Source: an uncultured virus (IMG/VR IMGVR_UViG_3300009079_000019)
Taxonomy: Duplodnaviria; Heunggongvirae; Uroviricota; Caudoviricetes
Reading direction: 5' to 3' (one strand)
DNA: 20,000 nt
Virus record (IMG/VR): IMGVR_UViG_3300009079_000019
Span: 51,484-71,483 of that record
Shown here: piece by piece, positions 2,858 through 19,250 of the stretch
How positions within the stretch are numbered: position 1 is the first letter of the stretch
How the letters are laid out: every line of letters begins with the position of its first letter
The notes under the pieces: generated by a model
What the model was told of the DNA's origin: nothing
The model's database searches: none
Seen by the model: only the letters and a program-made list of their open reading frames with translations
Made by a program: the position numbers and the translations under genes

Positions 2858-3039
2858 TTTCCTTCCAGTTCCTGTTTGATTTGTTTGAGGTTCATTCCTG
2901 CCCAAATATCAAGGGCAATATCTGCTTTTTGAATTGCGGTCCAGAGTTTAGGATAGTCTCTCCAATCCACAACATCATCATCAATTGCTATAAGCAAATC
3001 AAGAATACAGATTTTGTAGAGTTTTTCTGTTTCAGTCAT
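2854..3039 (-). CDS. Hypothetical protein
   Basis: Track ORF; ATGACTGA start; coupled at both ends. Confidence 0.7.
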   Translation of the reverse strand: MTETEKLYKICILDLLIAIDDDVVDWRDYPKLWTAIQKADIALDIWAGMNLKQIKQELEGK

Positions 3040-3260
3040 TTTCCTTCAATTTCATCTAAAACACCAGCAGCATAAGAACCAAAGTCAATCTCACCTAACT
3101 CTGTATCACCACAATACTCGGGCACATTCTCCATCATAAATTCATCAAGATAAAGAAACACACGAATTGCTCTGCGTTTATCGTGCTCGGTGATTATGGT
3201 ATGAGGTTCCGCAATAGTTTTCGCAACCATATCAAAGAATTGTTTCATAGTAATGTTCAT
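3036..3260 (-). CDS. Hypothetical protein
   Basis: Track ORF; first gene after the promoter cassette at 3289-3345. Confidence 0.7.
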   Translation of the reverse strand: MNITMKQFFDMVAKTIAEPHTIITEHDKRRAIRVFLYLDEFMMENVPEYCGDTELGEIDFGSYAAGVLDEIEGK

Positions 3261-3288
3261 TTGCTGTTTGCGAATTGCGTATGAGACT

Positions 3289-3345
3289 ATTATAGGGCAT
3301 CAAGGGGCATCAGTGGGATGCTCTTGTGCCAGTTCGTCAGGTGTC
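3289..3345 (-). promoter_or_regulatory. Early promoter cassette copy 2
   Basis: GACACCTGACGAACTGGCACA (3325-3345)-N30-TATAAT (3289-3294). Confidence 0.75.
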
Positions 3346-3515
3346 TCATCACTCAAAGAAACCCTGAGATTATCACCCCCAATATGAAGGTGAAATATCC
3401 TTCCATCATTCAAGTATATTCCACACCAATATACATCAGTATCCATATTTTCCCAGTGAACCATCTTCACATCTTCCAACACAAACTCATCAGGATTGGT
3501 AAGTCTTTCAGTCAT
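3300..3515 (-). CDS. Hypothetical protein (C-terminus read through the promoter cassette)
   Basis: MTERLTNPDEFVLEDVKMVHWENMD...; start moved to ATGACTGA at 3515. Confidence 0.7.
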   Translation of the reverse strand: MTERLTNPDEFVLEDVKMVHWENMDTDVYWCGIYLNDGRIFHLHIGGDNLRVSLSDETPDELAQEHPTDAP

Positions 3516-3721
3516 TTTGCTTCCCAGAGTTTTCCTTCCATACCACATTCGCGAAACCTTCTTGTAGCATCACAATAACGACCATCAGTTTTTCCAGTCA
3601 CAACATTTCCAGTTATAAGTGGATGTAAGCACAAATCAAATGTGTCCCCAGAACCAGTAATATGAGCAGACCAATCTTTTTTATAGTGCTTACAATCCTT
3701 ACATAATTTTATTTCAGTCAT
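3512..3721 (-). CDS. Small Cys-rich, probably Zn-binding, protein
   Basis: MTEIKLCKDCKHY...LCLHP...YCDATR...ECGMEGKLWE. Confidence 0.7.
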   Translation of the reverse strand: MTEIKLCKDCKHYKKDWSAHITGSGDTFDLCLHPLITGNVVTGKTDGRYCDATRRFRECGMEGKLWEAK

Positions 3722-3732
3722 TGGTAATTCTT

Positions 3733-3954
3733 TCATTCTCTTGAGTCATACAAATAAGCAACCAGTTTTACAATATGGCAATGGTCTTTGATAAATCCAA
3801 GTTCATTTAGTGCGTATTCTGCGTCCTCTTCAAGAAGATAGATTTTCTCTGTGGTTTTATGTAAATCCACATAGATTTCACCATCTTTTCGTTTCTGCAT
3901 CACCACATAAAATATGTGCCCCGACTTTGTGGGTATTGGAGTTGTAGTATTCAT
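3733..3954 (-). CDS. Hypothetical protein
   Basis: Track ORF; ATGA overlap with the upstream gene. Confidence 0.65.
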   Translation of the reverse strand: MNTTTPIPTKSGHIFYVVMQKRKDGEIYVDLHKTTEKIYLLEEDAEYALNELGFIKDHCHIVKLVAYLYDSRE

Positions 3955-4217
3955 TGATAAGGATTGGGTAGATTTTTGATGATTTCAGTAAAGAAAGCAA
4001 GACGGTCTTTGGTATAAGCAACATCTACATTATGTGTCTCACAGAGTTTCATAATCTTCATAGTCTTTTCGTTGTAAAAAGAGTATCCGTCAAATTGCCC
4101 GTACTCAACATTATCAAGAAGTGATTCCTTCATCAGCTCAAAGAGTTGAAAAAGTTCTTGTTGAGTGAGTTCTACTTGTCGTTCAGTTTGTTGGTGCCCG
4201 TTGAATGTGATTTTCAT
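3951..4217 (-). CDS. Hypothetical protein
   Basis: Track ORF in the packed array. Confidence 0.7.
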   Translation of the reverse strand: MKITFNGHQQTERQVELTQQELFQLFELMKESLLDNVEYGQFDGYSFYNEKTMKIMKLCETHNVDVAYTKDRLAFFTEIIKNLPNPYQ

Positions 4218-4218
4218 T

Positions 4219-4479
4219 TTAGTTTACAGAATAAAGTTCAAGAATACGACGGGCAACACAAATGGAAAGTTCTTTGTTGCCGATAGACATATCTTCGGTG
4301 ATGTTTTTAGAACCTTCTTCAAGTCCTTTTTCACTTGAACGAATGTAAATTCCACCATTATCAGCATTTAGTTCTACACGATAAACCATTTCCTCTGCTT
4401 CATCGGTGAGTTCATAAACATCGGTCAAATTATGAACAATTTGAGTTCCGGGAACGATATTGTAAGGTTGAAAAGTCAT
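4219..4479 (-). CDS. Hypothetical protein
   Basis: Track ORF; first gene after the cassette at 4503-4559. Confidence 0.7.
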   Translation of the reverse strand: MTFQPYNIVPGTQIVHNLTDVYELTDEAEEMVYRVELNADNGGIYIRSSEKGLEEGSKNITEDMSIGNKELSICVARRILELYSVN

Positions 4480-4502
4480 TGGAGTTCTGTGTGTTCTTAT
4501 GT

Positions 4503-4559
4503 ATTATAAGGCATCTGGTGCCCCTGTGGAGGGGTGTCTGTGCCAGTTCGTCAGGTGTC
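4503..4559 (-). promoter_or_regulatory. Early promoter cassette copy 3
   Basis: GACACCTGACGAACTGGCACA (4539-4559)-N30 including CCCCTCCACAGGGGCACCAGATGCC-TATAAT (4503-4508). Confidence 0.75.
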
Positions 4560-5051
4560 CAACAGTGCCTTAAGAGACTTAAGTGTAGATTTAAGTTTCT
4601 CATTTTCTTCCTCAAGTTCTTTAATCTTGAGGTCTTTATCATCTTGAAGAACTTCTTTCTTCTCAAGAATGGTTCCAGTTACGTTAGCACCCACAAGGTT
4701 AGCACCCTCAAGGTTAGCACCCTCAAGGTTAGCACCCTTAAGGTCAGCACCCTTAAGGTTAGCATACCTAAGGTTAGCATCCTCAAGGTCAGCACCCTCA
4801 AGGTAAGCACCCTGAAGGTTAGCATCCCGAAGGTCGGCACCCACAAGGTTAGCACCCTTAAGGTCAGCACCCTCAAGGTTAGCACCCCGAAGGTTAGCAT
4901 CCTCAAGGTCAGCACCCACAAGGTTAGCACCCTCAAGGTCGGCACCCTCAAGGTTAGCACCCTTAAGGTTAGCATCCCGAAGGTTAGCACCCCAAAGGTC
5001 AGCACCTTTAAGGTTAGCAAAGGGTTTGATTTCGTATCCGTTGATGTTCAT
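4551..5051 (-). CDS. Pentapeptide-repeat protein with C-terminal coiled coil
   Basis: About 23 tandem A(N/D)Lx(G/D) pentapeptides followed by [26 protein letters not shown]. Confidence 0.9.
4680..5020. repeat. 15-bp tandem repeat encoding the pentapeptides
   Basis: AGGTTAGCACCCTCA and variants in tandem. Confidence 0.9.
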
Positions 5052-5074
5052 CAGGTTTCTGTGTGTATGAGACT

Positions 5075-5119
5075 ATTATAGGGCATCTGGTGCCCCTGTG
5101 GAGGGGGTCTGTGCTGTCC
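5075..5119 (-). promoter_or_regulatory. Early promoter cassette copy 4 (upstream box internally deleted)
   Basis: Spacer nearly identical to copy 3; TATAAT 5075-5080; plus strand TGTGC-TGTCC instead of TGTGC-CAGTTCGTCAGG-TGTCC. Confidence 0.65.
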
Positions 5120-5470
5120 TCAAACCCAAGTTATTACATTTGCCTTTGGGTGTTCTTTACAAGCACCCAACACCTTTTCCACAAAGGGAACAAAGTCTTT
5201 ATAAGTTCCCCAACCATTAGAAGCATCAAACTGCTTATAATGCTCTGGATGAGATTTGAGTTTTAGAAGTCCTGCCTCAAGATGTGGAATAAGTTTATCA
5301 GCAGTTGGATTTTCATAAAGGTCATCAGGATGCCACAGACACTTATAGATGCCTGCTTCTTCTGCCATCGTATTCAGGTTGTGAGTGATGTTTCCAGAAT
5401 ACAACTCAACCTTATGAGGTTCAGGTGCTCCCGTATCAACTTCAATTTCCAACGAAATATCAAGAGACAT
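5120..5470 (-). CDS. Hypothetical phage protein
   Basis: MSLDISL...NITHNLNTMAEEAGIYKCLWHP...PEHYKQFDASNGWGTY...ACKEHPKA; sole gene between two cassettes. Confidence 0.8.
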   Translation of the reverse strand: MSLDISLEIEVDTGAPEPHKVELYSGNITHNLNTMAEEAGIYKCLWHPDDLYENPTADKLIPHLEAGLLKLKSHPEHYKQFDASNGWGTYKDFVPFVEKVLGACKEHPKANVITWV

Positions 5471-5493
5471 AATGTGTTTGTGCTTATGAGACT

Positions 5494-5549
5494 ATTATAG
5501 GGCATCCACAGGGGGATTGGTGGGGTCTTGTGCCAGTGTCTCAAGTGTC
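5494..5549 (-). promoter_or_regulatory. Early promoter cassette copy 5
   Basis: GACACTTGAGACACTGGCACA (5529-5549)-N29-TATAAT (5494-5499). Confidence 0.75.
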
Positions 5550-5746
5550 ACAGTCTCCCGAAGTTCTTTAATGAGTTCCTGTAAATCTCTTACATCTATG
5601 AGATCTTCACCCTCACCATCAGTATATGAATATTCCAGTATAACAAACTCCAGAGCAGCAGCAATTACTTTCTCTCTGTTTCCTCTTTTAGGTCGCAGAG
5701 TATGAGGCATCGTTGCTTCTATAATTCGGTCTGCTGGTGATAACAT
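5495..5746 (-). CDS. Hypothetical protein (reads through the cassette; stop lies in the -10 box)
   Basis: MLSPADRIIEA...VIAAALEF...TLETLAQDPTNPPVDAL*. Confidence 0.7.
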   Translation of the reverse strand: MLSPADRIIEATMPHTLRPKRGNREKVIAAALEFVILEYSYTDGEGEDLIDVRDLQELIKELRETVTLETLAQDPTNPPVDAL

Positions 5747-6066
5747 TATGCTACACCCTCCGCACTATCTTTGAATTCTTTTACTTTTTCAAGGAATGAA
5801 ATTGATTGTTGATAAAGTGCCTCAATCAAGTCCTCAATATCACTAATTGCGATATGAGTGTATTCTTGATTGAGGTTTTCACAACGGAGAGCATCAATCA
5901 TAGACTGAAATGCGATAATTTGTTGCTGTTCCATCGTTACGGGTGTTCCCCAAGAAAGTCCAGAAGTTTCAAGATTATGGAAATCATTATACCGTTGAAG
6001 AATACGATTACTTCTTTCTCTCCGTGCTGCTTCTTCAATCATTTCATCAAGTGTAGGGTCAGTCAT
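5746..6066 (-). CDS. Hypothetical protein
   Basis: Track ORF; ATGACTGA start. Confidence 0.7.
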   Translation of the reverse strand: MTDPTLDEMIEEAARRERSNRILQRYNDFHNLETSGLSWGTPVTMEQQQIIAFQSMIDALRCENLNQEYTHIAISDIEDLIEALYQQSISFLEKVKEFKDSAEGVA

Positions 6067-6314
6067 AAGTTCTCCAGTTCATCAACAAGTTTAAGAATGT
6101 CTTTTACATTTACGACATTAATTCCGTGGTCTCCATCAATATTGAAGTTATTATATCCAAGTTCTTCTGCTAATGTTCTCAATACGGCAGCATACTCATA
6201 ATAAGTTTTAGTAATCATAGGGTCTCTACCCTCACGAATAAGTTTCCCCAAAGTAGGAGAACCTTCGGCAACATTTCGTGCTGCTGCTATAATTTTTTGT
6301 GCTGTTTCAGTCAT
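6063..6314 (-). CDS. Hypothetical protein
   Basis: Track ORF; ATGACTGA start. Confidence 0.7.
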   Translation of the reverse strand: MTETAQKIIAAARNVAEGSPTLGKLIREGRDPMITKTYYEYAAVLRTLAEELGYNNFNIDGDHGINVVNVKDILKLVDELENL

Positions 6315-6660
6315 TCAGTTTCTCCGCAAGTTCTTCTGGTGTAAATTTGGTTTCTGTAATCATAAGACCCAATACTTCTTTAGATGGATTTTTAACATCA
6401 TAATCACAGAAGTAGTTTTTACTACGACTATCTTGATAATAAGTTCTTCCATCCTTATCTTCAAGATAGTTGATGACTCCAGCATAAAGAGATTTATTCT
6501 TTTGTCCTTCTACATACCTATCTAAAAACTCTGGATGTTTTTGAATAAACTCTGGAGATGTAATATCATCCAAGAAACATCGTTCTTCTTTATGAGGTTC
6601 TTCTTTGGAAACTAACCGAAACCCAAATCGGGTAAGTAGTTTGTTGAATAAGTCAATCAT
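6307..6660 (-). CDS. Hypothetical protein
   Basis: Track ORF; 8-nt overlaps at both ends. Confidence 0.7.
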   Translation of the reverse strand: MIDLFNKLLTRFGFRLVSKEEPHKEERCFLDDITSPEFIQKHPEFLDRYVEGQKNKSLYAGVINYLEDKDGRTYYQDSRSKNYFCDYDVKNPSKEVLGLMITETKFTPEELAEKLND

Positions 6661-6802
6661 TTTGTGCCTCCTGTTTTTCTATAAGTTCTTTCAATTTTTG
6701 TTTAGCATAATCCGTGAGTTCTCTTTTTGATTTTCTCAATTCATCAATTTCACTTTGAGATAGTAGAAACCCGTCTGGAATATTCCCATATTCTTCACTC
6801 AT
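6653..6802 (-). CDS. Hypothetical protein (49 aa, not in track)
   Basis: MSEEYGNIPDGFLLSQSEIDELRKSKRELTDYAKQKLKELIEKQEAQND; fills the gap exactly, and GGAGG near its end can serve the next gene. Confidence 0.65.
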   Translation of the reverse strand: MSEEYGNIPDGFLLSQSEIDELRKSKRELTDYAKQKLKELIEKQEAQND

Positions 6803-6989
6803 CTCTTATATCCTTGAACCATTTAGCAAATTCAATCCATTTTGTATCGTTGAATGCTTCTGAACGATTGGCAGCACTGTAATCTTGGTTCCCATTTTCA
6901 GCACAAAATTTATGAAATGCGTGTTTAATCTCACACATCATAAGGTATCGGTGCATATTAACCATTTCGCATATTTGGGCATCAGTCAT
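6795..6989 (-). CDS. Hypothetical protein
   Basis: Track ORF; start moved to ATGACTGA at 6989. Confidence 0.65.
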   Translation of the reverse strand: MTDAQICEMVNMHRYLMMCEIKHAFHKFCAENGNQDYSAANRSEAFNDTKWIEFAKWFKDIRDE

Positions 6990-7168
6990 CGTTCCCACGC
7001 ATAAGATTTCAGGAGTTCGTTGTCTCTTTCAAGTGTCTCAATTTTATCATACAAATCGTCAATAATTTCAATCAAAGCAGGATAAGAAATATTTTCTATG
7101 TCCTCCCCGTATTCTGGGTCATTATAGACATAATATTGAAGTTGTTTCGTAAGGTTGCGTTCAGTCAT
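6986..7168 (-). CDS. Hypothetical protein (coiled-coil C-terminus)
   Basis: Track ORF; ATGACTGA start. Confidence 0.7.
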   Translation of the reverse strand: MTERNLTKQLQYYVYNDPEYGEDIENISYPALIEIIDDLYDKIETLERDNELLKSYAWER

Positions 7169-7356
7169 TTGTTTTTTTGTTTCTCAAAGTATTCAGTAAG
7201 TCCTTCAAATGCTCCAATAGAAAAGGCAATCCAACCGGGAGACAATACCCAAATCCAACTCCAATCAATAGTGTGAGTTAGTTTAGCACAAATAAAAAGA
7301 AAGAGCAAACTTTCAAAAATGCCGATTTTCAGTTTACCGATTTTGATTGGGTTCAT
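7165..7356 (-). CDS. Small membrane protein
   Basis: LLFLFICAKLTHTIDWSWIWVLSPGWIAF hydrophobic segments; start placed at MNPIKIG. Confidence 0.7.
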   Translation of the reverse strand: MNPIKIGKLKIGIFESLLFLFICAKLTHTIDWSWIWVLSPGWIAFSIGAFEGLTEYFEKQKNK

Positions 7357-7357
7357 T

Positions 7358-7765
7358 TCAGTTGTCCTCAAATAATGAATTGAATGCTTTGAGATACTCA
7401 ATCACCCCGCATTTTGGTTCTTTTGCTTTTTGAAGGACTTCTTCCCAAGTGTATGCTTTACCAACAACTCCTACAACTGGTTCGGGAGTTTCATCAGTCA
7501 CAAGATAAACATCTTCTCTATTTTGAGGATGAGAAAATACATCATAATCTTGAGCATATTCAGTCACTTTGTCCATCCAATACTTTTGATTCAGAGTAGA
7601 AAAGTATCCGGCATCATCAGGATGAATAGTGGGATGAAGTTTCCCATCTTCAATCTTCACGATAAACCTAACACCTTCAAGAATTCGGTCTCCAACAAGA
7701 TAACCATCAAAAATGGCAGTATCAAATTGAGTTCCGTCTTCGGATTCAAAATAAAGAGCAGTCAT
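7358..7765 (-). CDS. Hypothetical protein
   Basis: Track ORF, 135 aa; TATAAT and an A/C-rich leader upstream. Confidence 0.75.
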   Translation of the reverse strand: MTALYFESEDGTQFDTAIFDGYLVGDRILEGVRFIVKIEDGKLHPTIHPDDAGYFSTLNQKYWMDKVTEYAQDYDVFSHPQNREDVYLVTDETPEPVVGVVGKAYTWEEVLQKAKEPKCGVIEYLKAFNSLFEDN

Positions 7766-7797
7766 AATGTGTTTGTGTTTGTAAGAGTATTATACAG
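7766..7797 (-). promoter_or_regulatory. Partial early promoter (-10 plus leader, no upstream GACAC/GGCACA box)
   Basis: TATAAT 7789-7794 followed by actcttacaaacacaaacacattATG, closely matching the leader at 5471-5499. Confidence 0.5.
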
Positions 7798-7936
7798 GGT
7801 TTCCGTCAATAAACATAGGGTGATTTGGATAAGAACTCCTAACCATCATCACCCTAATCATAAGAGAACCATAACTCCCAGATTGTTTCATTGGAGTTCC
7901 TTTTCTGGTGTGGTTCCAAGATAGAATACTCATAAG

Positions 7937-8167
7937 TCAATTACTCGCGTATGAAAAATATACACTATCATAACCTTCACGATAACCAACACTATATGCT
8001 TTACCAGCAACTACCTTTACTCCATCACCATATGCTTTATCGGCAACTACAAGAGCAAACTTCACAGCAACCTCACGAAATGCGTTGTTCATAAACAGTT
8101 CATCATTAGGAGAAAGACCAAACTCACTTCCATCTCCCCAGAGTTCAATAAGTTCTTGTTCGGTCAT
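7937..8167 (-). CDS. Hypothetical protein
   Basis: Track ORF; ATGA overlap. Confidence 0.65.
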   Translation of the reverse strand: MTEQELIELWGDGSEFGLSPNDELFMNNAFREVAVKFALVVADKAYGDGVKVVAGKAYSVGYREGYDSVYFSYASN

Positions 8168-8397
8168 TTGGAGTTCCTTTGTGTTCGTTGTTTTTTAAGT
8201 GCTTTGAAGTATTCGTATGTGTGAAGTGTAACCACCTCCATCTCAAAGTTGCTTACTAGAATAGTGAAAGAACAAATTGTGACGAGAGCATCAAGTAGTC
8301 CGGCAACAGGAGTGAGAAAACGAAAAATCCAACATTTGAGGGTTAGTTCTTTTCGTTTCCATAAACAGATTTGTGGTTTGAACTGATGGTTTTTCAT
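8164..8397 (-). CDS. Hypothetical protein, possibly membrane-associated
   Basis: Start moved to MKNHQF at 8397, downstream of the promoter; hydrophobic middle segment. Confidence 0.65.
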   Translation of the reverse strand: MKNHQFKPQICLWKRKELTLKCWIFRFLTPVAGLLDALVTICSFTILVSNFEMEVVTLHTYEYFKALKKQRTQRNSK

Positions 8398-8418
8398 CGG
8401 TTTGTTTCGTATGAGACT

Positions 8419-8474
8419 ATTATAAGGCATCTGGTGCCCCTGTGGAGGGGTCTTGTGCCGGTTTGGGAAGTGTC
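8419..8474 (-). promoter_or_regulatory. Early promoter cassette copy 6
   Basis: GACACTTCCCAAACCGGCACA (8454-8474)-N29-TATAAT (8419-8424); same spacer as copies 3, 4 and 7. Confidence 0.75.
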
Positions 8475-8672
8475 CTACCTCGCATCCTTTTCAAGTGTCT
8501 CAATACAGTCCATCCATCCAGCATTATAATCGGCATCATACTTGGTTTCTTCTCTATGATGAGTTTTCAACCAGTCCTTTACGACATCCACAATCTCATT
8601 CGCAATCACATCACCAGATTGAACGGCATCGTGAGTATAATACCATTCTGTAAGTCGTTCGTGGAGTTTCAT
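8475..8672 (-). CDS. Hypothetical protein (single-module member of the shuffled family)
   Basis: IVDVVKDWL...DYNAGWMDCIETL. Confidence 0.7.
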   Translation of the reverse strand: MKLHERLTEWYYTHDAVQSGDVIANEIVDVVKDWLKTHHREETKYDADYNAGWMDCIETLEKDAR

Positions 8673-9349
8673 TTCTTATTCCTCAACTTTGATTTGATTT
8701 TTGTGAGTGCGTCATTATATCCATCTACAAGTAATTCAGTATCTACATTTTGAGAACCAGCAGCTGATTGAAAATCGGGCAACCATTTTTCAATATTATT
8801 CAAAATATCTTCAAGTAATCCACCTGCTATAATACTATTATAATCTACCATACATTTACAAATAAGTTCTTCAAGAGTTTTACCTAACTCAAACTTCAAG
8901 AACTTGGGTTCATCAAACACTCCATCTTTCTTTGCTTTCCTCATAGCATTACGAAGTCCAGCATCAACTTGCTCTGGTGTTTGTGGAGTTAGGTAATCTT
9001 CCACACTCTCATCTGGATGCTCCTTACACCATTTCACACTCTCACGAACAATATCCCCCCATTTTTGTTCTTTTTTGGGTTCTTTTACTACAACTTGTTC
9101 CTGATAAAGTTTCTCCAACTTTCTTTCAGTTTCGTCTTCTACAAGATAAAAAACTTCACCATCTGTATCAGTTTTATACCAACCACCACAAATACCATCA
9201 TAAAGATTGCGATAATAAGTTTCTCCATTATATGAGACGATAGAAAACTCACCTGATTTTTCAAGGGTCATTTGAGTTTCTTCAAGTTTTTGTAGTTTCA
9301 TTTGAAGGAGAGCAATATCTTCTTTGAGTTGTTGAATGGTTTCAGTCAT
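8669..9349 (-). CDS. Hypothetical multi-module protein, paralog of 14040..14789
   Basis: MTETIQQLKEDIA...VRESVKWCKEHPD...PQTPEQV...WLP..QSAAGSQN...GYND; start moved to ATGACTGA at 9349. Confidence 0.8.
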   Translation of the reverse strand: MTETIQQLKEDIALLQMKLQKLEETQMTLEKSGEFSIVSYNGETYYRNLYDGICGGWYKTDTDGEVFYLVEDETERKLEKLYQEQVVVKEPKKEQKWGDIVRESVKWCKEHPDESVEDYLTPQTPEQVDAGLRNAMRKAKKDGVFDEPKFLKFELGKTLEELICKCMVDYNSIIAGGLLEDILNNIEKWLPDFQSAAGSQNVDTELLVDGYNDALTKIKSKLRNKK

Positions 9350-11760: not shown

Positions 11761-11761
11761 T

Positions 11762-13238: not shown

Positions 13239-13239
13239 T

Positions 13240-13440
13240 TCAAATACCTGCGTCAGCATCAATAGTGAATTCTGCTTTGTCTGTGATAATCTCTACACTC
13301 ATATCATTCATAATGTCGGCAATCAAATCCCTTACCCTCTCCCTTGACTTGTGAGTATATACTCCATTCCAGTTTGATACCATTAGAGAGTGGTTGAAAG
13401 TATCAATAATAACTGCAAGTTCGTGTGCTGTGATTTTCAT
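13240..13440 (-). CDS. Hypothetical protein
   Basis: Track ORF. Confidence 0.7.
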   Translation of the reverse strand: MKITAHELAVIIDTFNHSLMVSNWNGVYTHKSRERVRDLIADIMNDMSVEIITDKAEFTIDADAGI

Positions 13441-13658
13441 TTGTTCTTCACCCAGTTACAATCAAAAAATACTTTAGACCAGAACCTTACCCAAGCATTA
13501 GGAACTTTACCTTCTTGTGGCACCCAAGTCATAGGAGAAAAACTAGCATCACCACCAAACGCATAACAAGTCCAGTTAGATAGTTTTGGTTGTGTGATAG
13601 TATATGTGTTTGATTTATTGTAATCAGCAGGAAAAGTATATTCAGTATATTCAGTCAT
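13437..13658 (-). CDS. Hypothetical protein
   Basis: C-terminal VPNAWVRFWSKVFFDCNW resembles that of 12693..13238. Confidence 0.7.
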   Translation of the reverse strand: MTEYTEYTFPADYNKSNTYTITQPKLSNWTCYAFGGDASFSPMTWVPQEGKVPNAWVRFWSKVFFDCNWVKNK

Positions 13659-13810
13659 CGTATTCCAATTTTGAGAGTGCCTTTCAGTTCATTATAAAGT
13701 CCATTCAATCCCTGTCTCCTATCATTATCAGTTACATCAAGAATATGATACAATAGTCGTGCCTGTTCTTCGTCCAGTGTGATTTTGTAGTTCTTTTGAA
13801 TTTCAATCAT
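13655..13810 (-). CDS. Hypothetical protein (51 aa, not in track)
   Basis: MIEIQKNYKITLDEEQARLLYHILDVTDNDRRQGLNGLYNELKGTLKIGIR; ATGA overlaps at both ends. Confidence 0.7.
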   Translation of the reverse strand: MIEIQKNYKITLDEEQARLLYHILDVTDNDRRQGLNGLYNELKGTLKIGIR

Positions 13811-14043
13811 TTTGGGCAGTGGAGAAAATATTTGTATTCAGAAAGCATATTATATTGCCATTGAACTAAATCACAACCTTTGTATTCACTGACAACTGTA
13901 AAAGTTCCATGTTTCTCAACTGGTTCTGCAACTGCTTGTGCTTCTGGTTGTTTGAAACTCTCAAGAATAGCAGGCACCATAAAATACAGACAAGCAAGAC
14001 AAAATCCAGTAAGTAATCCAAGTGCGTATTGTGGGTATCTCAT
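13807..14043 (-). CDS. Small membrane-anchored or exported protein
   Basis: N-terminal hydrophobic helix, then FTVVSEYKGCDLVQW...YFLHCPK. Confidence 0.7.
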   Translation of the reverse strand: MRYPQYALGLLTGFCLACLYFMVPAILESFKQPEAQAVAEPVEKHGTFTVVSEYKGCDLVQWQYNMLSEYKYFLHCPK

Positions 14044-14789
14044 CGTAGTTTCCTCTTGATTTTATTGAGACAATCGTTGAAACCTTCTACAGTACACTCA
14101 ACATAAGCATTTTGAGACCCAGCGGCAGATTGTTCTTTCGGCAACCATTCTTCAATGGCATCCACAAGTTCCTGAAGTGATGTTTCTTTCTTGGTGAATG
14201 TATCATCCCACCAGTCAGCAATCACATCATAAAGAGTTTGTGGTTTGGTAGATGAAACTACACCTTGCTTGACTGCTTCCCTGAATGCTTCTTTCAATCC
14301 ATCAGCAACTTGCTCTGGTGTTTGAGGTTTCAAACAATCTAATGGGTCTTTATCTGGATTTTCTTCACACCATTTCTTACTCTCACGAACAGCATCTTTT
14401 ATTTGTTGTCCTTTCCCATAAGTAAATACCGCCCACCTAAACCAAGCAGCAGGAGAAAGTTCATAATAACCATCACTCAAATATCCACTCAACTTTTCAC
14501 CAAAACGAAGAGCAACAGATTTCCATTCATTATCTTCTTGTTCTTCTTGAACTTTTTCCATTACTTCCTTTGCGGTAGAGATTGCGTAAGCAAACTCATA
14601 TCCTGCTTGGAAACCTTGCCACCTTGTATCATCATACTGGGAGTCAGTTTCTAATTCAGGATATTGCCCCCACCAATCTTTGTAGCATTCTTCTACTGGT
14701 GATTTTGTTCGTTGCTGTTCTTCAAGTTTTTGTAGTTTCTCTTGGAGAATAGCAATATCCTCTTTGAGTTGTTGAATAGTTTCAGTCAT
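14040..14789 (-). CDS. Hypothetical multi-module protein, paralog of 8669..9349
   Basis: Shares the N-terminal coil, VRES.KWC, PQTPEQV and QSAAGSQN modules; also carries the KSPVEE module. Confidence 0.8.
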   Translation of the reverse strand: MTETIQQLKEDIAILQEKLQKLEEQQRTKSPVEECYKDWWGQYPELETDSQYDDTRWQGFQAGYEFAYAISTAKEVMEKVQEEQEDNEWKSVALRFGEKLSGYLSDGYYELSPAAWFRWAVFTYGKGQQIKDAVRESKKWCEENPDKDPLDCLKPQTPEQVADGLKEAFREAVKQGVVSSTKPQTLYDVIADWWDDTFTKKETSLQELVDAIEEWLPKEQSAAGSQNAYVECTVEGFNDCLNKIKRKLR

Positions 14790-14989
14790 TTCAAGTTCTC
14801 CCTTGCTTTGCGAGCAGTATCATAAAGTTCCCGAAGTCGTTGCGACCTCTCCTCTCGTTTTTTGACTTGTTCTGGACTATTATGCCACACACTATCAGTT
14901 CCGTGTAAAGGGCAATCTGGATTGAGGTTTTGAGTGTTTGAAGTTTTGGTTCCTATTTGAATGTAGGAACAGGTGCATTTGGTAGTCAT
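14786..14989 (-). CDS. Small Cys/His Zn-binding-like protein
   Basis: KCTC...NPDCPLHG. Confidence 0.7.
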   Translation of the reverse strand: MTTKCTCSYIQIGTKTSNTQNLNPDCPLHGTDSVWHNSPEQVKKREERSQRLRELYDTARKARENLK

Positions 14990-15171
14990 ACATCCTCCAT
15001 ATCAAAACTCATATCATATTTTGGTAGTGGTTGTCCTGCTACATTATAGCACCAATCACAAAAGTTCATACTCTCTACCATATCAACATCCCATCCACAA
15101 CACTCCACAGCACTATGAAGTGTGGAAAGAAACTCTGGTGTGAGAAGTTCTTTGAGTTCTTGTTTCGTCAT
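14986..15171 (-). CDS. Hypothetical protein, paralog of 10679..10861
   Basis: KQELKELLTPEFLSTLHSAVECC. Confidence 0.75.
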   Translation of the reverse strand: MTKQELKELLTPEFLSTLHSAVECCGWDVDMVESMNFCDWCYNVAGQPLPKYDMSFDMEDV

Positions 15172-15368
15172 CGGTTCATCCAGTCTCTCAAATCAACAAT
15201 TTCATACCAATCACAACCCCAATCCCGTCCATTTACGGTATATCCTTTGGTTTTTTTGGGTTCTACTTGTGCCTTTGCTTCTTCATAGGTAGAGAAACAC
15301 CCAACCCAATCACCAGTATCAGCAGAAGGGTAATAATTGTCTCCAGCAATCAGCAAATAAGTTTTCAT
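15168..15368 (-). CDS. Hypothetical phage protein
   Basis: YLLIAGDNYYP....GDW.GCF.TYEEA...DWYEIVDL. Confidence 0.75.
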   Translation of the reverse strand: MKTYLLIAGDNYYPSADTGDWVGCFSTYEEAKAQVEPKKTKGYTVNGRDWGCDWYEIVDLRDWMNR

Positions 15369-15514
15369 CGTAGTTTCCTCAACATTTCATAGTAAATGTT
15401 TAACTCCCTCCGCACCGCATTCAATTCACTATGCGTTGCACCAAGAGATTGAAGAGTATCAAACTCTTCGTGCAATACATTAAGTTTGGATTGAATCTTT
15501 TGTTTGTCAGTCAT
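15365..15514 (-). CDS. Hypothetical protein (49 aa, not in track)
   Basis: MTDKQKIQSKLNVLHEEFDTLQSLGATHSELNAVRRELNIYYEMLRKLR; first gene after cassette copy 8. Confidence 0.7.
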   Translation of the reverse strand: MTDKQKIQSKLNVLHEEFDTLQSLGATHSELNAVRRELNIYYEMLRKLR

Positions 15515-15537
15515 CGGGTTCCTTTGTGTATGAAAGT

Positions 15538-15594
15538 ATCATACATCAAAAAAAGGCACCTGTAAAGTGCCCTTGTGCCTGTTTGGAAAGTGTC
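15538..15594 (-). promoter_or_regulatory. Early promoter cassette copy 8
   Basis: GACACTTTCCAAACAGGCACA (15574-15594); TTTACA (15561-15566)-N17-TATGAT (15538-15543). Confidence 0.7.
15548..15571 (-). terminator. Intrinsic terminator embedded in promoter cassette copy 8
   Basis: Minus strand GGCAC-tttacag-GTGCC-TTTTTTT. Confidence 0.65.
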
Positions 15595-15639
15595 CTTATG
15601 CTACTCGTTGCTTCTGGTTACGACACACATAAGCATTTT

Positions 15640-15647
15640 TATTTATA
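15640..15647 (-). promoter_or_regulatory. T4-type late promoter TATAAATA with no sizeable downstream ORF
   Basis: Exact consensus in an intergenic gap. Confidence 0.6.
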
Positions 15648-15651
15648 CTGA

Positions 15652-16155
15652 CTACTTTAGGTTCTCCTCCAAAACAGTAAGACATTCTTCATATCCTTTC
15701 AAATATTCTCCAGTCATCACATTATGAGTGTATTGAGACAGCCATTCTTTTACAATTCCACAAAACTCATCACAATCAGGTACAATCCATACTGTTTCAT
15801 GAAATAATTGATGAAGAGTTTTGAGTTCTCCCCGTTCTTGTGCGGTTTCTTTCACCTTCTCTTCATAAGCAGCATCATAACCCTTCTGGAAAGCATCCCA
15901 AGAAATTACATTCCAATTATCTAGTGGAGTAAGGTCTTCACTAACATCTTTCACAGGATACTTACCATAAACTCTTTTATATGCTTCTTCTACTGGTGAT
16001 TTTGTTTTTTCCAGTTCTTCAAGGAAAGAGAGTTTCTTTTCCAATACTTTGATTTGTGCTTTTACTTCTTCAATTTCAGTCATTTGTTCTTTCTTTTCAA
16101 GAGGGCCATAAACTTGTTCCATTAGATTTTGGAAGTCCTTTTCAATACCAAACAT
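15652..16155 (-). CDS. Hypothetical multi-module protein (alternative internal start at 16083)
   Basis: MTEIEEVKAQIKVLEKKL...KSPVEEAYKRVYGKYP...WDAFQKGY...KEWL...EYLKGYEECL. Confidence 0.75.
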   Translation of the reverse strand: MFGIEKDFQNLMEQVYGPLEKKEQMTEIEEVKAQIKVLEKKLSFLEELEKTKSPVEEAYKRVYGKYPVKDVSEDLTPLDNWNVISWDAFQKGYDAAYEEKVKETAQERGELKTLHQLFHETVWIVPDCDEFCGIVKEWLSQYTHNVMTGEYLKGYEECLTVLEENLK

Positions 16156-16355
16156 TATAATACCTCCAGTTCTTCAATAATGGATTTGATTTGTTTGAGA
16201 TTATCATAAAGTTCTTTATTGAAATCATAACATTCAGTCAAATGGTCTATGTTGTTGTCCTCAAAGTTAGTTTCCTCACGGATTTCCCAAGACAAACCAT
16301 CCATATCTGCTGCTGTTTCTGTGAGAAAGTATTCAAGTGTTTCAAGTAAAGTCAT
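16155..16355 (-). CDS. Hypothetical acidic protein
   Basis: Track ORF; coupled at both ends. Confidence 0.7.
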   Translation of the reverse strand: MTLLETLEYFLTETAADMDGLSWEIREETNFEDNNIDHLTECYDFNKELYDNLKQIKSIIEELEVL

Positions 16356-16549
16356 AATACCTCATTATCAAAGTTGTTTAGATAGTTCCAAAACCACAAC
16401 ATATCATCATCACTCACATATTCCTCATACCTTTTACCATATTCACTATAATAAATGTGAGGATACATTACTCTAAACCACCAATCAAAACACCATCTCC
16501 ACATCAATCTTCGCAACCAAAACTGTTTGAGATTATATGAAAGTTTCAT
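16352..16549 (-). CDS. Hypothetical Trp-rich protein
   Basis: Start moved to MKLSYN at 16549 (ATGA overlap). Confidence 0.65.
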   Translation of the reverse strand: MKLSYNLKQFWLRRLMWRWCFDWWFRVMYPHIYYSEYGKRYEEYVSDDDMLWFWNYLNNFDNEVL

Positions 16550-16731
16550 TTCAGTTTCTCCAAGCAAATAGAACAGAGACAATCATCAGTTTTAGGAACT
16601 CTAAACATTATGTGATTACCAGAACAACAATCCCTATCACCACATTTTCTACATTCATCACAAACCCACTCCTTTTGATTACGACATTTTACGAAATCTT
16701 CAAGAGTGTATTGTTGGAGAATAGAAGTCAT
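16546..16731 (-). CDS. Cys-rich Zn-finger-like protein
   Basis: CDECRKCGDRDCC...CLCSIC. Confidence 0.7.
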   Translation of the reverse strand: MTSILQQYTLEDFVKCRNQKEWVCDECRKCGDRDCCSGNHIMFRVPKTDDCLCSICLEKLK

Positions 16732-16877
16732 TCTAATACATCAGTAAGTTTGTTATACATCCAAGAGATTATGAGTGCCTGTCCCCAAGTAAGAGGAAAG
16801 AAAGATACAAGTGCCCAACCCATCAATCCCACAACAATATAAAATCCAATTGTTGCTCCAATCTCGTGTTTAGTCAT
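16728..16877 (-). CDS. Small membrane protein (49 aa), copy B
   Basis: MTKHEIGATIGFYIVVGLMGWALVSFFPLTWGQALIISWMYNKLTDVLE. Confidence 0.75.
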   Translation of the reverse strand: MTKHEIGATIGFYIVVGLMGWALVSFFPLTWGQALIISWMYNKLTDVLE

Positions 16878-17041
16878 TTTATGTTCCCCGTGAGAAATAC
16901 TTTGAGTGTCTTTCCGTCATTATGAAAACTTACCTGAACTTGGGAACATTCATCCCATTCATCCCAAAAAAACTCTTCACCCTCACTTGAGATGACTTCA
17001 ACACGATTTACATTTGGATACTTTTGAATGTTTTCAGTCAT
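16874..17041 (-). CDS. Hypothetical protein (55 aa, not in track)
   Basis: MTENIQKYPNVNRVEVISSEGEEFFWDEWDECSQVQVSFHNDGKTLKVFLTGNIK. Confidence 0.7.
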   Translation of the reverse strand: MTENIQKYPNVNRVEVISSEGEEFFWDEWDECSQVQVSFHNDGKTLKVFLTGNIK

Positions 17042-17247
17042 TTGAGGTTCCTCATAATGAATTCTTTGTATTCTCTTTGCCCCAACTTATAAGCATTCAT
17101 AGAATAGTCGGTGTCTGGATATCCAATAGTATTAGGCAACCATTCTTTGAGTGCTTCAATCATAAACTCTATATTTCTTGGGTCAATTTTTCCACCACCT
17201 TCTTTGAGGACATAAAAGAAAAATGAGTTCTTGTTTGCTTGGTTCAT
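17038..17247 (-). CDS. Hypothetical protein (KEWLP module)
   Basis: Start placed at MNQANK 17247 (GGAG upstream). Confidence 0.65.
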   Translation of the reverse strand: MNQANKNSFFFYVLKEGGGKIDPRNIEFMIEALKEWLPNTIGYPDTDYSMNAYKLGQREYKEFIMRNLK

Positions 17248-17317
17248 TTCAATATTCTCCGTTGAGTTTTCTGATTCCACACTCAAGTTCATAAATGCGT
17301 TCAGTCATTTCAGTTGC

Positions 17318-17647
17318 TCAAAATTTCTCTTCAATTTCTTGTTTTGTTGCTACTTCAACAGTAGGATAATTCACATCCTCATAACCATACAATTCAAAAT
17401 TTCTAATCAGGTCTGTAACAAGATTATCGCACAGATAATCAGCAAAAATGTTCGGGTCAAGTTCTCCATCATATGTAAGCATATCATCATCCTTATGCTT
17501 TTCAGGGTCAAACCTAATATAAAAAGTTACTTTATAACCTTTTAGGTTTTCCAAAGCACCCTTTAACTTCTGTTGTTCCTTATGCTTTTGGATTTGAAGT
17601 TCAAGTTCGTTGAGTTGTTCTTCGGTCAGTTGTGAAAGGTCAATCAT
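17318..17647 (-). CDS. Hypothetical protein
   Basis: MIDLSQLTEEQLNELE...; first gene after cassette copy 9. Confidence 0.75.
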   Translation of the reverse strand: MIDLSQLTEEQLNELELQIQKHKEQQKLKGALENLKGYKVTFYIRFDPEKHKDDDMLTYDGELDPNIFADYLCDNLVTDLIRNFELYGYEDVNYPTVEVATKQEIEEKF

Positions 17648-17670
17648 CAGGTGTCTGTGTGTATGAGAGT

Positions 17671-17727
17671 ATTATAGCACCAACAGAGGCACCCAGAGCG
17701 TCCCCTTGTGCCAGTTGTTCAAGTGTC
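17671..17727 (-). promoter_or_regulatory. Early promoter cassette copy 9
   Basis: GACACTTGAACAACTGGCACA (17707-17727)-N30-TATAAT (17671-17676). Confidence 0.75.
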
Positions 17728-17877
17728 CTCACCAAAGTTCTTATAAATCGCATCCACCCATATCTTATCAAAATATTTTCTGTCTTCATCAGTAATCATA
17801 TTTGCTCTCATATACTCTTCAAGTGTGGTGTTATTATCATCCAAGTATTTTTGGAGTTCTTCAAGGTTTATAGACAT
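17719..17877 (-). CDS. Hypothetical protein (52 aa, not in track)
   Basis: MSINLEELQKYLDDNNTTLEEYMRANMITDEDRKYFDKIWVDAIYKNFGEDT*; stop lies inside the cassette box. Confidence 0.65.
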   Translation of the reverse strand: MSINLEELQKYLDDNNTTLEEYMRANMITDEDRKYFDKIWVDAIYKNFGEDT

Positions 17878-18145
17878 AAACCTCAAAGGTTATTTTATTC
17901 ATATGGTCTCCAAATTCCATATTCATACTTATCACCTGTGCCTCATCATTTTGGAGTTGTTCTGCGACTTGTTGAAAAGAAGTTTTCAAGTCATCAAGGT
18001 CATAAGATTTGAGTGTTGGAGGTTTTGATTTCTTCAGTTCATCTGCGAATGTTTCTTCACCCTCATAATCTTCTATTCTTGGAAGTTTTGGTTTCTCTTT
18101 CTTTCCGTAAAGTTCCTCATATTTTTGTAGTAAAGGGTTCATCAT
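17861..18145 (-). CDS. Hypothetical protein, paralog of 12156..12413
   Basis: NPLLQKYEE...YDLDDLKTSFQQVA. Confidence 0.75.
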   Translation of the reverse strand: MMNPLLQKYEELYGKKEKPKLPRIEDYEGEETFADELKKSKPPTLKSYDLDDLKTSFQQVAEQLQNDEAQVISMNMEFGDHMNKITFEVYVYKP

Positions 18146-18348
18146 TCTAAAATAATATCACAACCGTCGTTTCGTAAGTTCAACGACCATACAGATTTTA
18201 CCACATTTGATAGATTATTACCAACACTCATCCACACCTCAAAATCCTCACCATACTCATTTGTATCAGGAAGAACACTCAAGATTTCTTTGAGTTGCCG
18301 AATGGTGAGTGCGTCAGTTGTGAATGGTTGGGTTCTTATATCAGTCAT
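18142..18348 (-). CDS. Hypothetical protein
   Basis: LTIRQLKEILSVLPD...GEDFEVWM; ATGACTGA start. Confidence 0.7.
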   Translation of the reverse strand: MTDIRTQPFTTDALTIRQLKEILSVLPDTNEYGEDFEVWMSVGNNLSNVVKSVWSLNLRNDGCDIILE

Positions 18349-18449
18349 TTTTTACACCGATGTAATGGAATACGAAGGAACTGAAAGAACCTTCCAGTCC
18401 ATCCTATCTGTTCTCCGCATTTAAGGCAACAATAAGATGGGTGGGTCAT
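18345..18449 (-). CDS. 34-aa zinc-ribbon-like microprotein, copy B
   Basis: MTHPSYCCLKCGEQIGWTGRFFQFLRIPLHRCKK. Confidence 0.7.
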   Translation of the reverse strand: MTHPSYCCLKCGEQIGWTGRFFQFLRIPLHRCKK

Positions 18450-18574
18450 TTCACTTCCTCACTAACTGGTGTTTCCATAGGTTCAATAAGTAAAACAGTT
18501 GCATCGGGGGATGTTTCTGCAGTCAAAAGAGGTTTCCATTTTTTTATAAGTTTTTGAGTTTCTTCTTCAGTCAT
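18446..18574 (-). CDS. 42-aa microprotein resembling the N-terminus of T4-like gp23
   Basis: MTEEETQKLIKKWKPLLTAETSPDATVLLIEPMETPVSEEVK; ATGA overlaps at both ends. Confidence 0.6.
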   Translation of the reverse strand: MTEEETQKLIKKWKPLLTAETSPDATVLLIEPMETPVSEEVK

Positions 18575-18756
18575 TCTTTATCCCCAATAAGAAATTTTTC
18601 ATTCTCCAATCGTCTCAAATGGTCTTTCAAGAGTATATCACATAAGAACTGCGTATCTGTATATCTGGTTCCAAAATAAGGTTCCCATTTATCACAATAA
18701 GGACAACCAATTCTTGCGTTTTCTATATCTATTACGATGGTATGGTTTTTAGTCAT
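18571..18756 (-). CDS. Small CxxC protein
   Basis: IGCPYCDKW...FLC....DH. Confidence 0.65.
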   Translation of the reverse strand: MTKNHTIVIDIENARIGCPYCDKWEPYFGTRYTDTQFLCDILLKDHLRRLENEKFLIGDKE

Positions 18757-18779
18757 TTGTTTATGGTGTTGGTTGGTAG

Positions 18780-19250
18780 TCAGTCATAAGGAATCCATTC
18801 GGCAAAACTAAAGATATAAGCAAGTCCCCATTCTAATGTATGAGGTGGTAGTTCGTCAATATGATTAAACGCAAGTCGTCTTGCTTCCAAGATGCGTTCT
18901 TTACCTACCGCAAGTAGATTTGCTTTAGAACCTTTGAGAAACTCATTATAATCTGCCTGATTATTCTGTTTCACACCAGAGATATACAATCGTCTCATTT
19001 CAGTAAAAAGTTCTGCGGTTTCAGGGGCAAATGTAATCACTTCTTCCCCCAAAGGGATTTCCATAGTTTTTATCGCACTCATTGAAAATTTCATCGCATC
19101 TCTGCTTTCTTCTACTGATAAGGCATCCTCATCCTCATCACGAAACTTATGTTGAATACACCCATTTGAGCATTCTATGACCCTCAACAGAGCAATCTTA
19201 TCCTTTTCTGCGTCCGGTAATTCAGCAAATCTTGCGTCCCAGTCAATCAT
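18780..19250 (-). CDS. Hypothetical protein
   Basis: Start moved to MIDWDARF at 19250, overlapping the endonuclease stop (ATGA). Confidence 0.75.

What the first reader, a model, noticed from the sequence alone, without database searches (positions are those of the whole stretch)
3032..18787. ATGACTGA as a universal gene connector: a start codon with stops in both other frames, 19 exact copies
Seen: plus-strand TCAGTCAT begins at 3032, 3508, 3714, 6059, 6307, 6982, 7161, 9342, 10679, 13231, 13651, 14782, 15507, 16076, 17034, 17301, 18341, 18567 and 18780, each at a probable or possible gene start. ATGACTGA has TGA at positions 2-4 and 6-8, so an out-of-frame upstream ORF always ends inside it. 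All three outcomes occur. 4-nt overlaps: 3036/3039, 6063/6066, 7165/7168, 14786/14789, 18345/18348. 8-nt overlaps giving ...D* ends: 6307/6314, 9342/9349, 10679/10686, 18780/18787. In-frame fusion: 16083 inside 15652..16155. Variants ATGATTGA/ATGATTAA behave likewise (6653/6660, 9806/9813). Inference: a standard junction giving translational coupling and recombination microhomology would let micro-genes be swapped in any order without an integrase.
Basis: partly seen in the sequence, partly recalled or inferred. Interest (0 to 1): 0.8.

Follow-up and report, generated by a model that had tools for sequence, protein, structure and literature searches.

The report
Start codons as phage gene-swap joints
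In a virus of freshwater cyanobacteria, dozens of tiny genes are chained so that each start codon also supplies the previous gene's stop, and related viruses gain, lose and reorder whole genes mostly at those start codons, which offers a simple answer to how such orphan-gene arrays get shuffled.

Summary
The 19 copies are real (about 2 expected) and confined to the overlapped micro-gene array of a T4-like cyanophage related to S-SRM01 and S-PM2 ('ORFanage'). Across 201 overlapping loci of relatives, gene exchange breaks at start codons: 316 of 1244 shared blocks begin exactly at the A of an ATG, and 96 of 149 clean whole-gene indels have start codons in register (control 6%). Shared letters there exceed chance (7.9 vs 5.9 nt). 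The second stop (nt 6-8) is a DNA-level signal, beyond Met-Thr-Glu bias (synonymous OR 3.3). It is absent from long genes and from T4-like enterophages. The exact 8-mer, however, is not the joint: it is no commoner at indel ends than at neighbouring starts (37/184 vs 329/1313), and 61 of 92 events have it at neither end. The connector is ATG(A) plus a few letters; ATGACTGA is its consensus. A longer promoter repeat is a second exchange site. In-register swaps also occur in T4-like enterophages (11/23). Best model: microhomology recombination at starts, filtered by selection. The scan noted kindred junctions on other DNA.

The parts
2284..19250 (-). Array of about 64 overlapped micro-genes (ORFanage / hyperplastic region); of 66 curated genes 60 start ATGA, 30 ATGACT, 15 ATGACTGA; junctions: 36 at -4, 7 at -8, 5 at +1, 3 at -1
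3032..3039 (-). ATGACTGA, 4-nt overlap
3508..3515 (-). ATGACTGA, 4-nt overlap; one end of a 439-bp two-gene indel against L132/L133
3714..3721 (-). ATGACTGA in frame, 5 codons inside ORF 3512..3736 (possibly the true start)
6059..6066 (-). ATGACTGA, 4-nt overlap
6307..6314 (-). ATGACTGA, 8-nt overlap
6982..6989 (-). ATGACTGA, 4-nt overlap
7161..7168 (-). ATGACTGA, 4-nt overlap
9342..9349 (-). ATGACTGA, 8-nt overlap; one end of a 464-bp two-gene indel against L066 (8 shared letters)
10679..10686 (-). ATGACTGA, 8-nt overlap
13231..13238 (-). ATGACTGA, 1 base after the upstream stop
13651..13658 (-). ATGACTGA, 4-nt overlap
14782..14789 (-). ATGACTGA, 4-nt overlap
15507..15514 (-). ATGACTGA, first gene behind a promoter repeat, no overlap
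16076..16083 (-). ATGACTGA in frame behind a 24-codon leader (MFGIEKDF...); in 5 of 7 other versions the same leader is fused in frame to other Met-started modules
17034..17041 (-). ATGACTGA, 4-nt overlap
17301..17308 (-). ATGACTGA opening a 19-codon ORF (relic or very small gene)
18341..18348 (-). ATGACTGA, 4-nt overlap
18567..18574 (-). ATGACTGA, 4-nt overlap
18780..18787 (-). ATGACTGA, 8-nt overlap, opening an 8-codon relic of a gene that is intact in relatives; it still supplies the stop of the upstream gene
6653..6660 (-). Variant ATGATTGA, 8-nt overlap
9806..9813 (-). Variant ATGATTAA, 8-nt overlap; other end of the 464-bp indel
11600..11762 (-). Gene duplicated at 16717-16879 (94% identical); the similarity runs from its own start to the next gene's ATGACT
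12405..12518 (-). Gene duplicated at 18340-18453 (89% identical); start-to-start unit
17641..17731 (-). Promoter repeat of about 85 nt (GACAC..TGGCACA, variable spacer, TATAAT-like box, leader); second exchange site
15507..15597 (-). Promoter repeat copy (folds well, z -4.8)
11979..12069 (-). Promoter repeat copy
8388..8478 (-). Promoter repeat copy
5463..5553 (-). Promoter repeat copy
5042..5132 (-). Promoter repeat copy (lacks the upstream half)
4473..4563 (-). Promoter repeat copy
3259..3349 (-). Promoter repeat copy (z -3.1)
1355..1445 (-). Promoter repeat copy

Best explanation
The array behaves as a set of gene cassettes that run from one ATG to the next. SHOWN: recently shared blocks and clean indels begin and end at start codons; the upstream gene keeps its overlap type whichever gene follows; shared letters at these joints exceed chance; ATGA-started families have more different upstream neighbours; the stop at nt 6-8 is enriched at the synonymous level. 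INFERRED: ordinary phage recombination (template switching or annealing on about 5-8 shared letters during T4-type replication) joins two starts in register. Such joins survive because both genes stay whole, in frame and coupled, while most other joins are purged. Because a cassette usually has no stop of its own (the -4 type borrows nt 2-4 of the next gene, the -8 type nt 6-8), a gene that begins ATGAnTRA terminates either kind of neighbour and shares most letters with other starts, so such starts accumulate. ATGACTGA is the commonest spelling of this start, not a recognised site. Where the 85-nt promoter repeat is present, exchange mostly uses it instead.
For: Left ends: 316 of 1244 exactly at the A of ATG, 59% within -10..0 vs 8.5% for random positions; right ends peak at +4 (206 of 1283) and +6 (111). 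Indels: 96 of 149 with starts in register vs 6% for shifted registers. Shared run 7.9 vs 5.9 nt, reached by 0 of 5000 resamplings; both sides contribute. Overlap type kept with the upstream gene in 447 of 569 (expected 41%; -8 kept in 70 of 84), but with the downstream gene in only 327 of 720 (expected 38%). Simulation: random joins plus a viability filter put at most 1% at ATG; with 5-6 shared letters and 1-3 codons of tolerance, 49-77%, against 64% observed. Stop at nt 6-8 in 38% of 320 families at -4 joints, where it is unused, vs 5-12% further in; synonymous test 122/144 vs 59/94, OR 3.3, control OR 0.92. The T excess is specific to stop-forming contexts (AA 66/82 vs 35% further in; A[CT] 24/53 vs 40%). 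Neighbour diversity 4.0-4.6 for ATGA starts vs 2.95 for others, p<0.001. The same contig's promoter-rich micro-genes have 0 of 39 ATGACTGA starts vs 14 of 65 in the array, p=0.0009.
Against: The microhomology excess is modest (capped at 10 nt: 6.6 vs 5.8), and 17 of 92 events share only 3-4 letters. 53 of 149 indels are not in register. The one laboratory deletion in this kind of array (S-PM2d) has 1 shared letter and lies inside genes. The double-stop advantage in mobility is weak (p=0.046 for other ATGAnTRA starts, p=0.11 for ATGACTGA, against other ATGA starts), and double-stop starts are not enriched at indel ends (89/184 vs 658/1313). The second stop is also enriched at promoter-first starts (OR 2.75). 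Events are collapsed by family or k-mers but are not phylogenetically independent; the viability rules of the simulation are my own assumptions.
Confidence: 0.65

Rival explanations
1. Translation alone shapes the start (ATGA overlap for reinitiation, a favoured Met-Thr-Glu/Asp/Lys/Asn N-terminus, out-of-frame stops as error proofing). Breakpoints gather at starts only because selection removes other joins; shared letters play no part.
For: Met-Thr starts are common also in the promoter-rich region (12/39 vs 30/65, p=0.15) and at promoter-first genes (ATGACT 26%). Fourth-site A enrichment is general in bacteria (PMC5850271, abstract). The 8-mer is not enriched at breakpoints.
Against: Homology-free joins plus selection give at most 1% in-register joins at ATG in the simulation vs 64% seen. 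Shared runs exceed those of neighbouring starts. The nt 6-8 stop is at background in long genes (12% of 173) and in T4-like small genes (14% vs 11-12%).
Confidence: 0.2
2. A dedicated activity (a phage recombinase, or a nuclease or R-loop linked to translation initiation) cuts or joins at start codons, making an integrase-like cassette system whose attachment site is the start.
For: Base-level sharpness of the peak at the A of ATG; 14 of 92 indels share only 4 letters and 3 only 3; swaps at ATG occur even behind promoter repeats (6 of 32).
Against: No recombinase family among 35 window proteins scanned (the contig is partial). No conserved site beyond ATGA. A passive model reproduces the share. 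In-register swaps also occur in T4-like enterophages (11/23).
Confidence: 0.08
3. One reading: the exact 8-mer is the universal connector and upstream genes join in any frame.
For: It is the commonest first octamer of small genes (263 of 2984); pairs of alternative followers both carry it somewhat more often than expected (32 of 321 vs 20); all three frames are seen in the window.
Against: 37/184 at indel ends vs 329/1313 at neighbouring starts; neither end in 61 of 92; frame is kept with the upstream gene.
Confidence: 0.05

Closest known systems
S-PM2 'ORFanage' region (Puxty et al. 2015, PMC4503421; parts 1-3 of 4 read, i.e. the main text without references)
   Same: Same kind of region and shared genes; 15 of S-PM2's 27 copies of the 8-mer lie in its first 15 kb. 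The paper reports intense shuffling and freshwater enrichment.
   Different: The paper says the mechanism 'remains unclear', thinks PeSLs unlikely and proposes mispackaging or illegitimate recombination; in the text read it does not describe start-codon joints. Its laboratory deletion does not use one.
PeSL promoter/stem-loop cassettes of T4-type phages (Arbiol 2010, PMC2839356, 12 passages; Comeau 2014, PMC4122927, parts 1-2 of 3)
   Same: Integrase-free exchange of whole ORFans at a repeated sequence in hyperplastic regions. The 85-nt promoter repeat here works like a PeSL (26 of 32 swaps behind it end upstream of the ATG, nearly all within the repeat).
   Different: The start-codon joint has no promoter, hairpin or intergenic DNA; the shared sequence has a median of 6 nt and lies inside two coding frames.
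Short conserved boundary sequences vs illegitimate recombination in phage mosaicism (as set out in Pope 2011, PMC3029335, 4 passages)
   Same: Module boundaries at gene boundaries; a short shared sequence at the boundary.
   Different: Here the boundary sequence is the start codon itself with 1-5 further letters, measured over many events; the result lies between the two classical models.
Termination-reinitiation at ATGA/TGATG overlaps (Huber 2019, PMC6728339, 9 passages)
   Same: 36 of 65 curated junctions are ATGA overlaps.
   Different: Overlap density is far above the <10% the paper gives for Cyanobacteria; 8-nt overlaps and a spare second stop are common; the word 'recombination' does not occur in that paper.
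Integron cassette arrays (features recalled, not from a call)
   Same: Arrays of single-gene, promoterless cassettes that change order.
   Different: No integrase found, no attC-like intergenic element, genes overlap.

Membership tests
PeSL (applied to the 8-mer / start joint) | Composite sigma70-like promoter with stem-loop, Shine-Dalgarno and start codon in intergenic DNA | tested here: not met
   Joints are overlaps of -4/-8/-1 with no intergenic DNA
PeSL (applied to the 85-nt promoter repeat) | Repeated promoter motif upstream of ORFans in a hyperplastic region | tested here: met
   9 copies with a TATAAT-like box before gene starts; promoter activity inferred from sequence only
PeSL (applied to the 85-nt promoter repeat) | Stem-loop | tested here: inconclusive
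   2 of 7 copies fold better than shuffles (z -4.8, -3.1); 5 do not
PeSL (applied to the 85-nt promoter repeat) | Gene exchange with crossovers inside the repeat | tested here: met
   26 of 32 swaps end upstream of the next ATG, nearly all within the repeat; 6 of 143 clean indels
PeSL (applied to the 85-nt promoter repeat) | Excised mini-circles | not testable with these tools
   Only assembled contigs were available
Boundary (linker) sequence recombination | Short conserved sequence shared by unrelated modules at their boundary, with crossovers in it | tested here: met
   ATGA within the shared run in 68 of 70 perfect-run indels; 96 of 149 in register
Boundary (linker) sequence recombination | Homology long enough for general homologous recombination (tens of bases; recalled) | tested here: not met
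   Median 6 nt; 19 of 92 reach 10 nt
Integron | IntI tyrosine recombinase nearby | tested here: inconclusive
   No such Pfam hit in 35 window proteins scanned; the smaller ORFs and the rest of the partial genome were not scanned
Integron | attC sites between cassettes | tested here: not met
   Genes overlap or abut; no intergenic repeat other than the promoter repeat
Termination-reinitiation coupled pairs | Overlapping stop and start codons | tested here: met
   46 of 65 junctions at -1, -4 or -8
Termination-reinitiation coupled pairs | Downstream translation depends on upstream translation | not testable with these tools
   Needs reporters or ribosome profiling

The most novel reading that the evidence does not exclude
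The cyanophage ORFanage is an evolved, integrase-free cassette system whose attachment site is the start codon. Cassettes lack their own stop and borrow it from whichever gene is plugged in next, and the double-stop start ATGAnTRA was selected because of shuffling, as a universal adapter that terminates either kind of upstream cassette. This would be selection for evolvability written into eight coding bases, possibly with excised single-gene circles as intermediates.
Probability: 0.35. Interest if true: 0.8.

Novelty: new variant of a known kind. Interest (0 to 1): 0.6.

Why it matters
Puxty et al. 2015 left open how cyanophage ORFanage genes are acquired and shuffled and set PeSLs aside. The base-level breakpoint map answers that for this clade with a testable rule (join start to start on about 5-8 shared letters). 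It also gives numbers to the old question whether phage mosaic boundaries come from shared boundary sequences or from random joins plus selection: here both seem needed. The array-specific spare stop is a candidate case of coding sequence shaped by the need to be swappable. S-PM2 and S-SRM01 are cultured, so the test is within reach.

Tried and rejected
1) Exact 8-mer as the recombination site: rejected. 2) Pure amino-acid bias: rejected by the synonymous test and the interior control (after ACT, GA 0.167 inside genes vs 0.40 at starts). 3) S-PM2d laboratory deletion as a positive example: it is not one. 4) Uniqueness to cyanophages: in-register swaps are not significantly rarer in T4-like enterophages (11/23 vs 96/149, p=0.17; 10 indels of about 99 bp against L232 were dropped as likely assembly gaps); left ends at -3..0 in 47 of 167. 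Only the double-stop consensus is absent there. 5) The first gene caller missed many small genes and was retrained. 6) The test of left ends where both copies are promoter-first (30 of 30 upstream of the ATG) is biased, because the filter demands non-homologous flanks; it is not used as evidence. 7) Sequencing runs: only contigs were available, so no expression level, start site or rare deletion could be seen; the RNA run holds parts of the array in another gene order but is not shown to be transcribed. 8) The script stopped at a division by zero after the results cited; the rest was rerun. 9) The junction printout for L132 found no exact anchor; that event rests. 10) Literature searches for start-codon-precise phage breakpoints returned nothing relevant; some searches gave the papers cited. 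The library lacks most subscription papers, and no supplements were read, so earlier remarks on this may exist. No structure prediction, complex prediction or protein homologue search was run; they do not bear on the question.


Full report
Setting. The window is the end of a 71,483-bp virus contig. Its other long ORFs read like T4-type tail sheath, terminase, neck and baseplate proteins (names recalled from the translations, not from a library hit). The closest annotated records are Synechococcus phages S-SRM01 (reservoir isolate) and S-PM2, Kyanoviridae. All called genes in the window are on the minus strand. Between two NUMOD3-bearing endonuclease-like genes lies a chain of about 64 genes, mostly 34-120 aa; of 35 window proteins scanned, 32 had no Pfam hit. 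This is the kind of region called the ORFanage in S-PM2. Puxty et al. (PMC4503421, parts 1-3 of 4 read) report intense shuffling there, call its mechanism unclear and consider PeSLs unlikely.

Observation. The 19 copies are exactly where stated, against about 2 from dinucleotide shuffles and 0.34 starts from codon shuffles (15 observed among 66 curated genes). Ten are 4-nt overlaps, four 8-nt overlaps, two in-frame internal ATGs and three have no overlap; two of the 19 open only 8- and 19-codon ORFs. The motif is confined to the array: none on the coding strand of the other 51 kb. In five related genomes (S-SRM01, S-PM2 and three IMG/VR records) 16-28 copies lie on one strand and cluster in the array, most clearly in four. 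The assembly is supported by an independent 5,197-bp contig at 99.96% identity and by multi-kilobase contig pieces of three DNA runs, none spanning the whole stretch.

Data set. Four protein scans and one promoter-pattern scan of viral contigs, the two isolates and the own contig gave 201 sequences, 2.96 Mb, 9,230 called genes and 1,384 families. Many loci overlap or are near-identical, and two of the four query genes themselves start ATGACTGA, so counts were de-duplicated or voted per family. The gene caller has no term that rewards overlaps. At neighbouring settings it recovered 76 of 79 and 105 of 108 annotated genes, with 63 and 90 exact starts, so about one start in six may be wrong.

Is it codon bias? 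ATGACTGA is the commonest first octamer of small genes (263 of 2,984 after de-duplication of 9,071 rows to 3,820) and occurs in 0 of 173 genes of 250 aa or more (p=3e-7). After ACT the next codon begins GA in 40% of starts but 17% inside genes. At 4-nt overlaps, where it is not used, a stop at nt 6-8 is present in 38% of 320 families against 5-12% at later positions. The third base of codon 2 is T in 122 of 144 cases where that makes a stop and 59 of 94 where it does not (OR 3.3, p=1.6e-4), with no such effect at codons 5-13 (OR 0.92). Near-miss contexts show little or no excess. Against a purely junctional reading, the motif and the synonymous effect persist, weaker, at promoter-first genes (12 of 160 families; OR 2.75), and Met-Thr as such is as common in the contig's promoter-rich micro-genes (12 of 39 vs 30 of 65, p=0.15), though ATGACTGA is not (0 of 39 vs 14 of 65, p=0.0009). 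In 800 small-gene starts of 40 T4-like enterophage loci the octamer is 0.6% and the second stop near background.

Where do genes break? Ungapped blocks of at least 90 nt and 90% identity with non-homologous flanks were found without reference to genes. Of 1,827 left ends 1,244 lie in gene-dense DNA; 316 start exactly at the A of an ATG and 59% within ten bases upstream of it (8.5% for random positions). Of 1,855 right ends 1,283 were kept; they peak 4 and 6 bases into the next gene (206 and 111), with a broad tail in the last codons of the shared gene (35% at -30..+2). After collapsing by family the shares are 496 of 766 and 337 of 720. When a gene is followed by different genes it keeps its overlap type (447 of 569, expected 41%; -8 with -8 in 70 of 84); when it is preceded by different genes it does not (327 of 720, expected 38%). 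The unit therefore runs from one ATG to the next, and most units borrow their stop from the next gene.

Clean indels. Of 143 family-collapsed indels, 70 have a perfect shared run containing a start, 51 lie within 12 nt of a start, 6 in the promoter repeat, 5 in other long runs and 11 elsewhere. ATGA is within the run in 68 of 70, ATGACT in 27, ATGACTGA in 5 (part of that output was cut, the tallies were not). With another collapse, 96 of 149 have start codons in register against 6% for shifted registers. For the 92 with ATG at both ends the shared run averages 7.9 nt against 5.9 for neighbouring coupled starts (0 of 5,000 resamplings; 6.6 vs 5.8 when capped at 10). The octamer is at 37 of 184 ends against 329 of 1,313 neighbouring starts (p=0.17), at both ends in 6, at neither in 61. 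Window examples are the two-gene blocks 9350-9813 (absent in L066, 8 shared letters) and 3516-3954 (absent in L132/L133, 5 shared letters). The only laboratory deletion known to me, S-PM2d, has 1 shared letter and cuts inside two genes, so it does not follow the rule.

Mechanism. In a simulation on 1,245 real junctions, homology-free crossovers that leave both genes nearly whole fall at ATG in register in at most 1% of cases; requiring 5-6 shared letters and allowing 1-3 codons of damage gives 49-77%, bracketing the 64% seen. The viability rules are mine. T4-type recombination proteins are reported in all cyanomyoviruses then sequenced (PMC2984593, 7 passages); which of them acts here is not shown. 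Families that start ATGA meet more different upstream neighbours (4.0-4.6 per six alleles) than others (2.95); double-stop starts are only marginally higher than other ATGA starts. I therefore put 0.65 on microhomology joining at starts filtered by selection, with the double stop favoured because it terminates both kinds of upstream cassette. That last step is the least secure. An 85-nt promoter repeat (9 copies in the window) is a second, PeSL-like exchange site: of 32 swaps behind it 26 end upstream of the next ATG, nearly all within the repeat, and 6 at the ATG.

Comparison and novelty. It works like the boundary-sequence model discussed in Pope et al. (PMC3029335, 4 passages) and like PeSL shuffling (PMC2839356, 12 passages; PMC4122927, parts 1-2 of 3), but the joint is neither a PeSL nor an integron site. 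ATGA overlaps and fourth-site A enrichment are known as translation features (PMC6728339, 9 passages; PMC5850271, abstract). In-register swaps also appear in T4-like enterophages (11 of 23 after dropping 10 probable assembly gaps; p=0.17 against the cyanophages), often with the ribosome-binding site carried along, so the principle is general and the cyanophage arrays are an extreme form with a distinctive double-stop consensus. Four searches for a published description of start-precise breakpoints found none, within a library that lacks most subscription papers; supplements were not read. Earlier notes of this scan describe similar joints on other DNA; they are unchecked leads and were seen after the analysis.

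Verdict. Observation confirmed; interpretation partly supported; new variant of a known kind; interest 0.6.

Noticed in passing
window 4551-5051 (-): Pentapeptide-repeat protein (Pfam PF00805) behind its own promoter repeat; source of the 15-nt periodic repeat.
   Followed up: partly
window 1433-2179 and 19247-19942 (-): Two NUMOD3-bearing endonuclease-like genes, 77% alike over 236 nt, bracket the array; each has a shared upstream module. Earlier scan notes discuss such control modules.
   Followed up: no
window 3-980 (-), contig C1 51189-52463: A 424-aa ORF whose body is higher in GC (47% in the first kb) than its surroundings and has no Pfam hit; it may be a captured module.
   Followed up: no
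contig C1 about 36,000-51,000: A second micro-gene region with most genes separated by spacers and many copies of the promoter core on both strands; no ATGACTGA starts.
   Followed up: partly
window 8669-9593, 14040-14789, 15652-16155: Proteins built from shared coiled-coil-like N-terminal modules (MTETIQQLKED..., MTEIEEVKAQI...) and other shared blocks; one 1,297-bp indel against L201 falls in such internal homology, not at a start.
   Followed up: partly
many loci, e.g. window 11760, 17308, 7356: Unrelated genes end in a shared tail reading GAACTGAA before the next ATG (..ELK*); it lengthens some microhomologies to 11-15 nt and itself holds an out-of-frame stop.
   Followed up: partly
L002 5798/15340 vs L003: The S-PM2d deletion joint lies next to an offset 7-letter repeat but shares only one letter in register.
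   Followed up: partly
L232: Repeated apparent deletions of about 99 bp against several relatives, probably assembly gaps.
   Followed up: no
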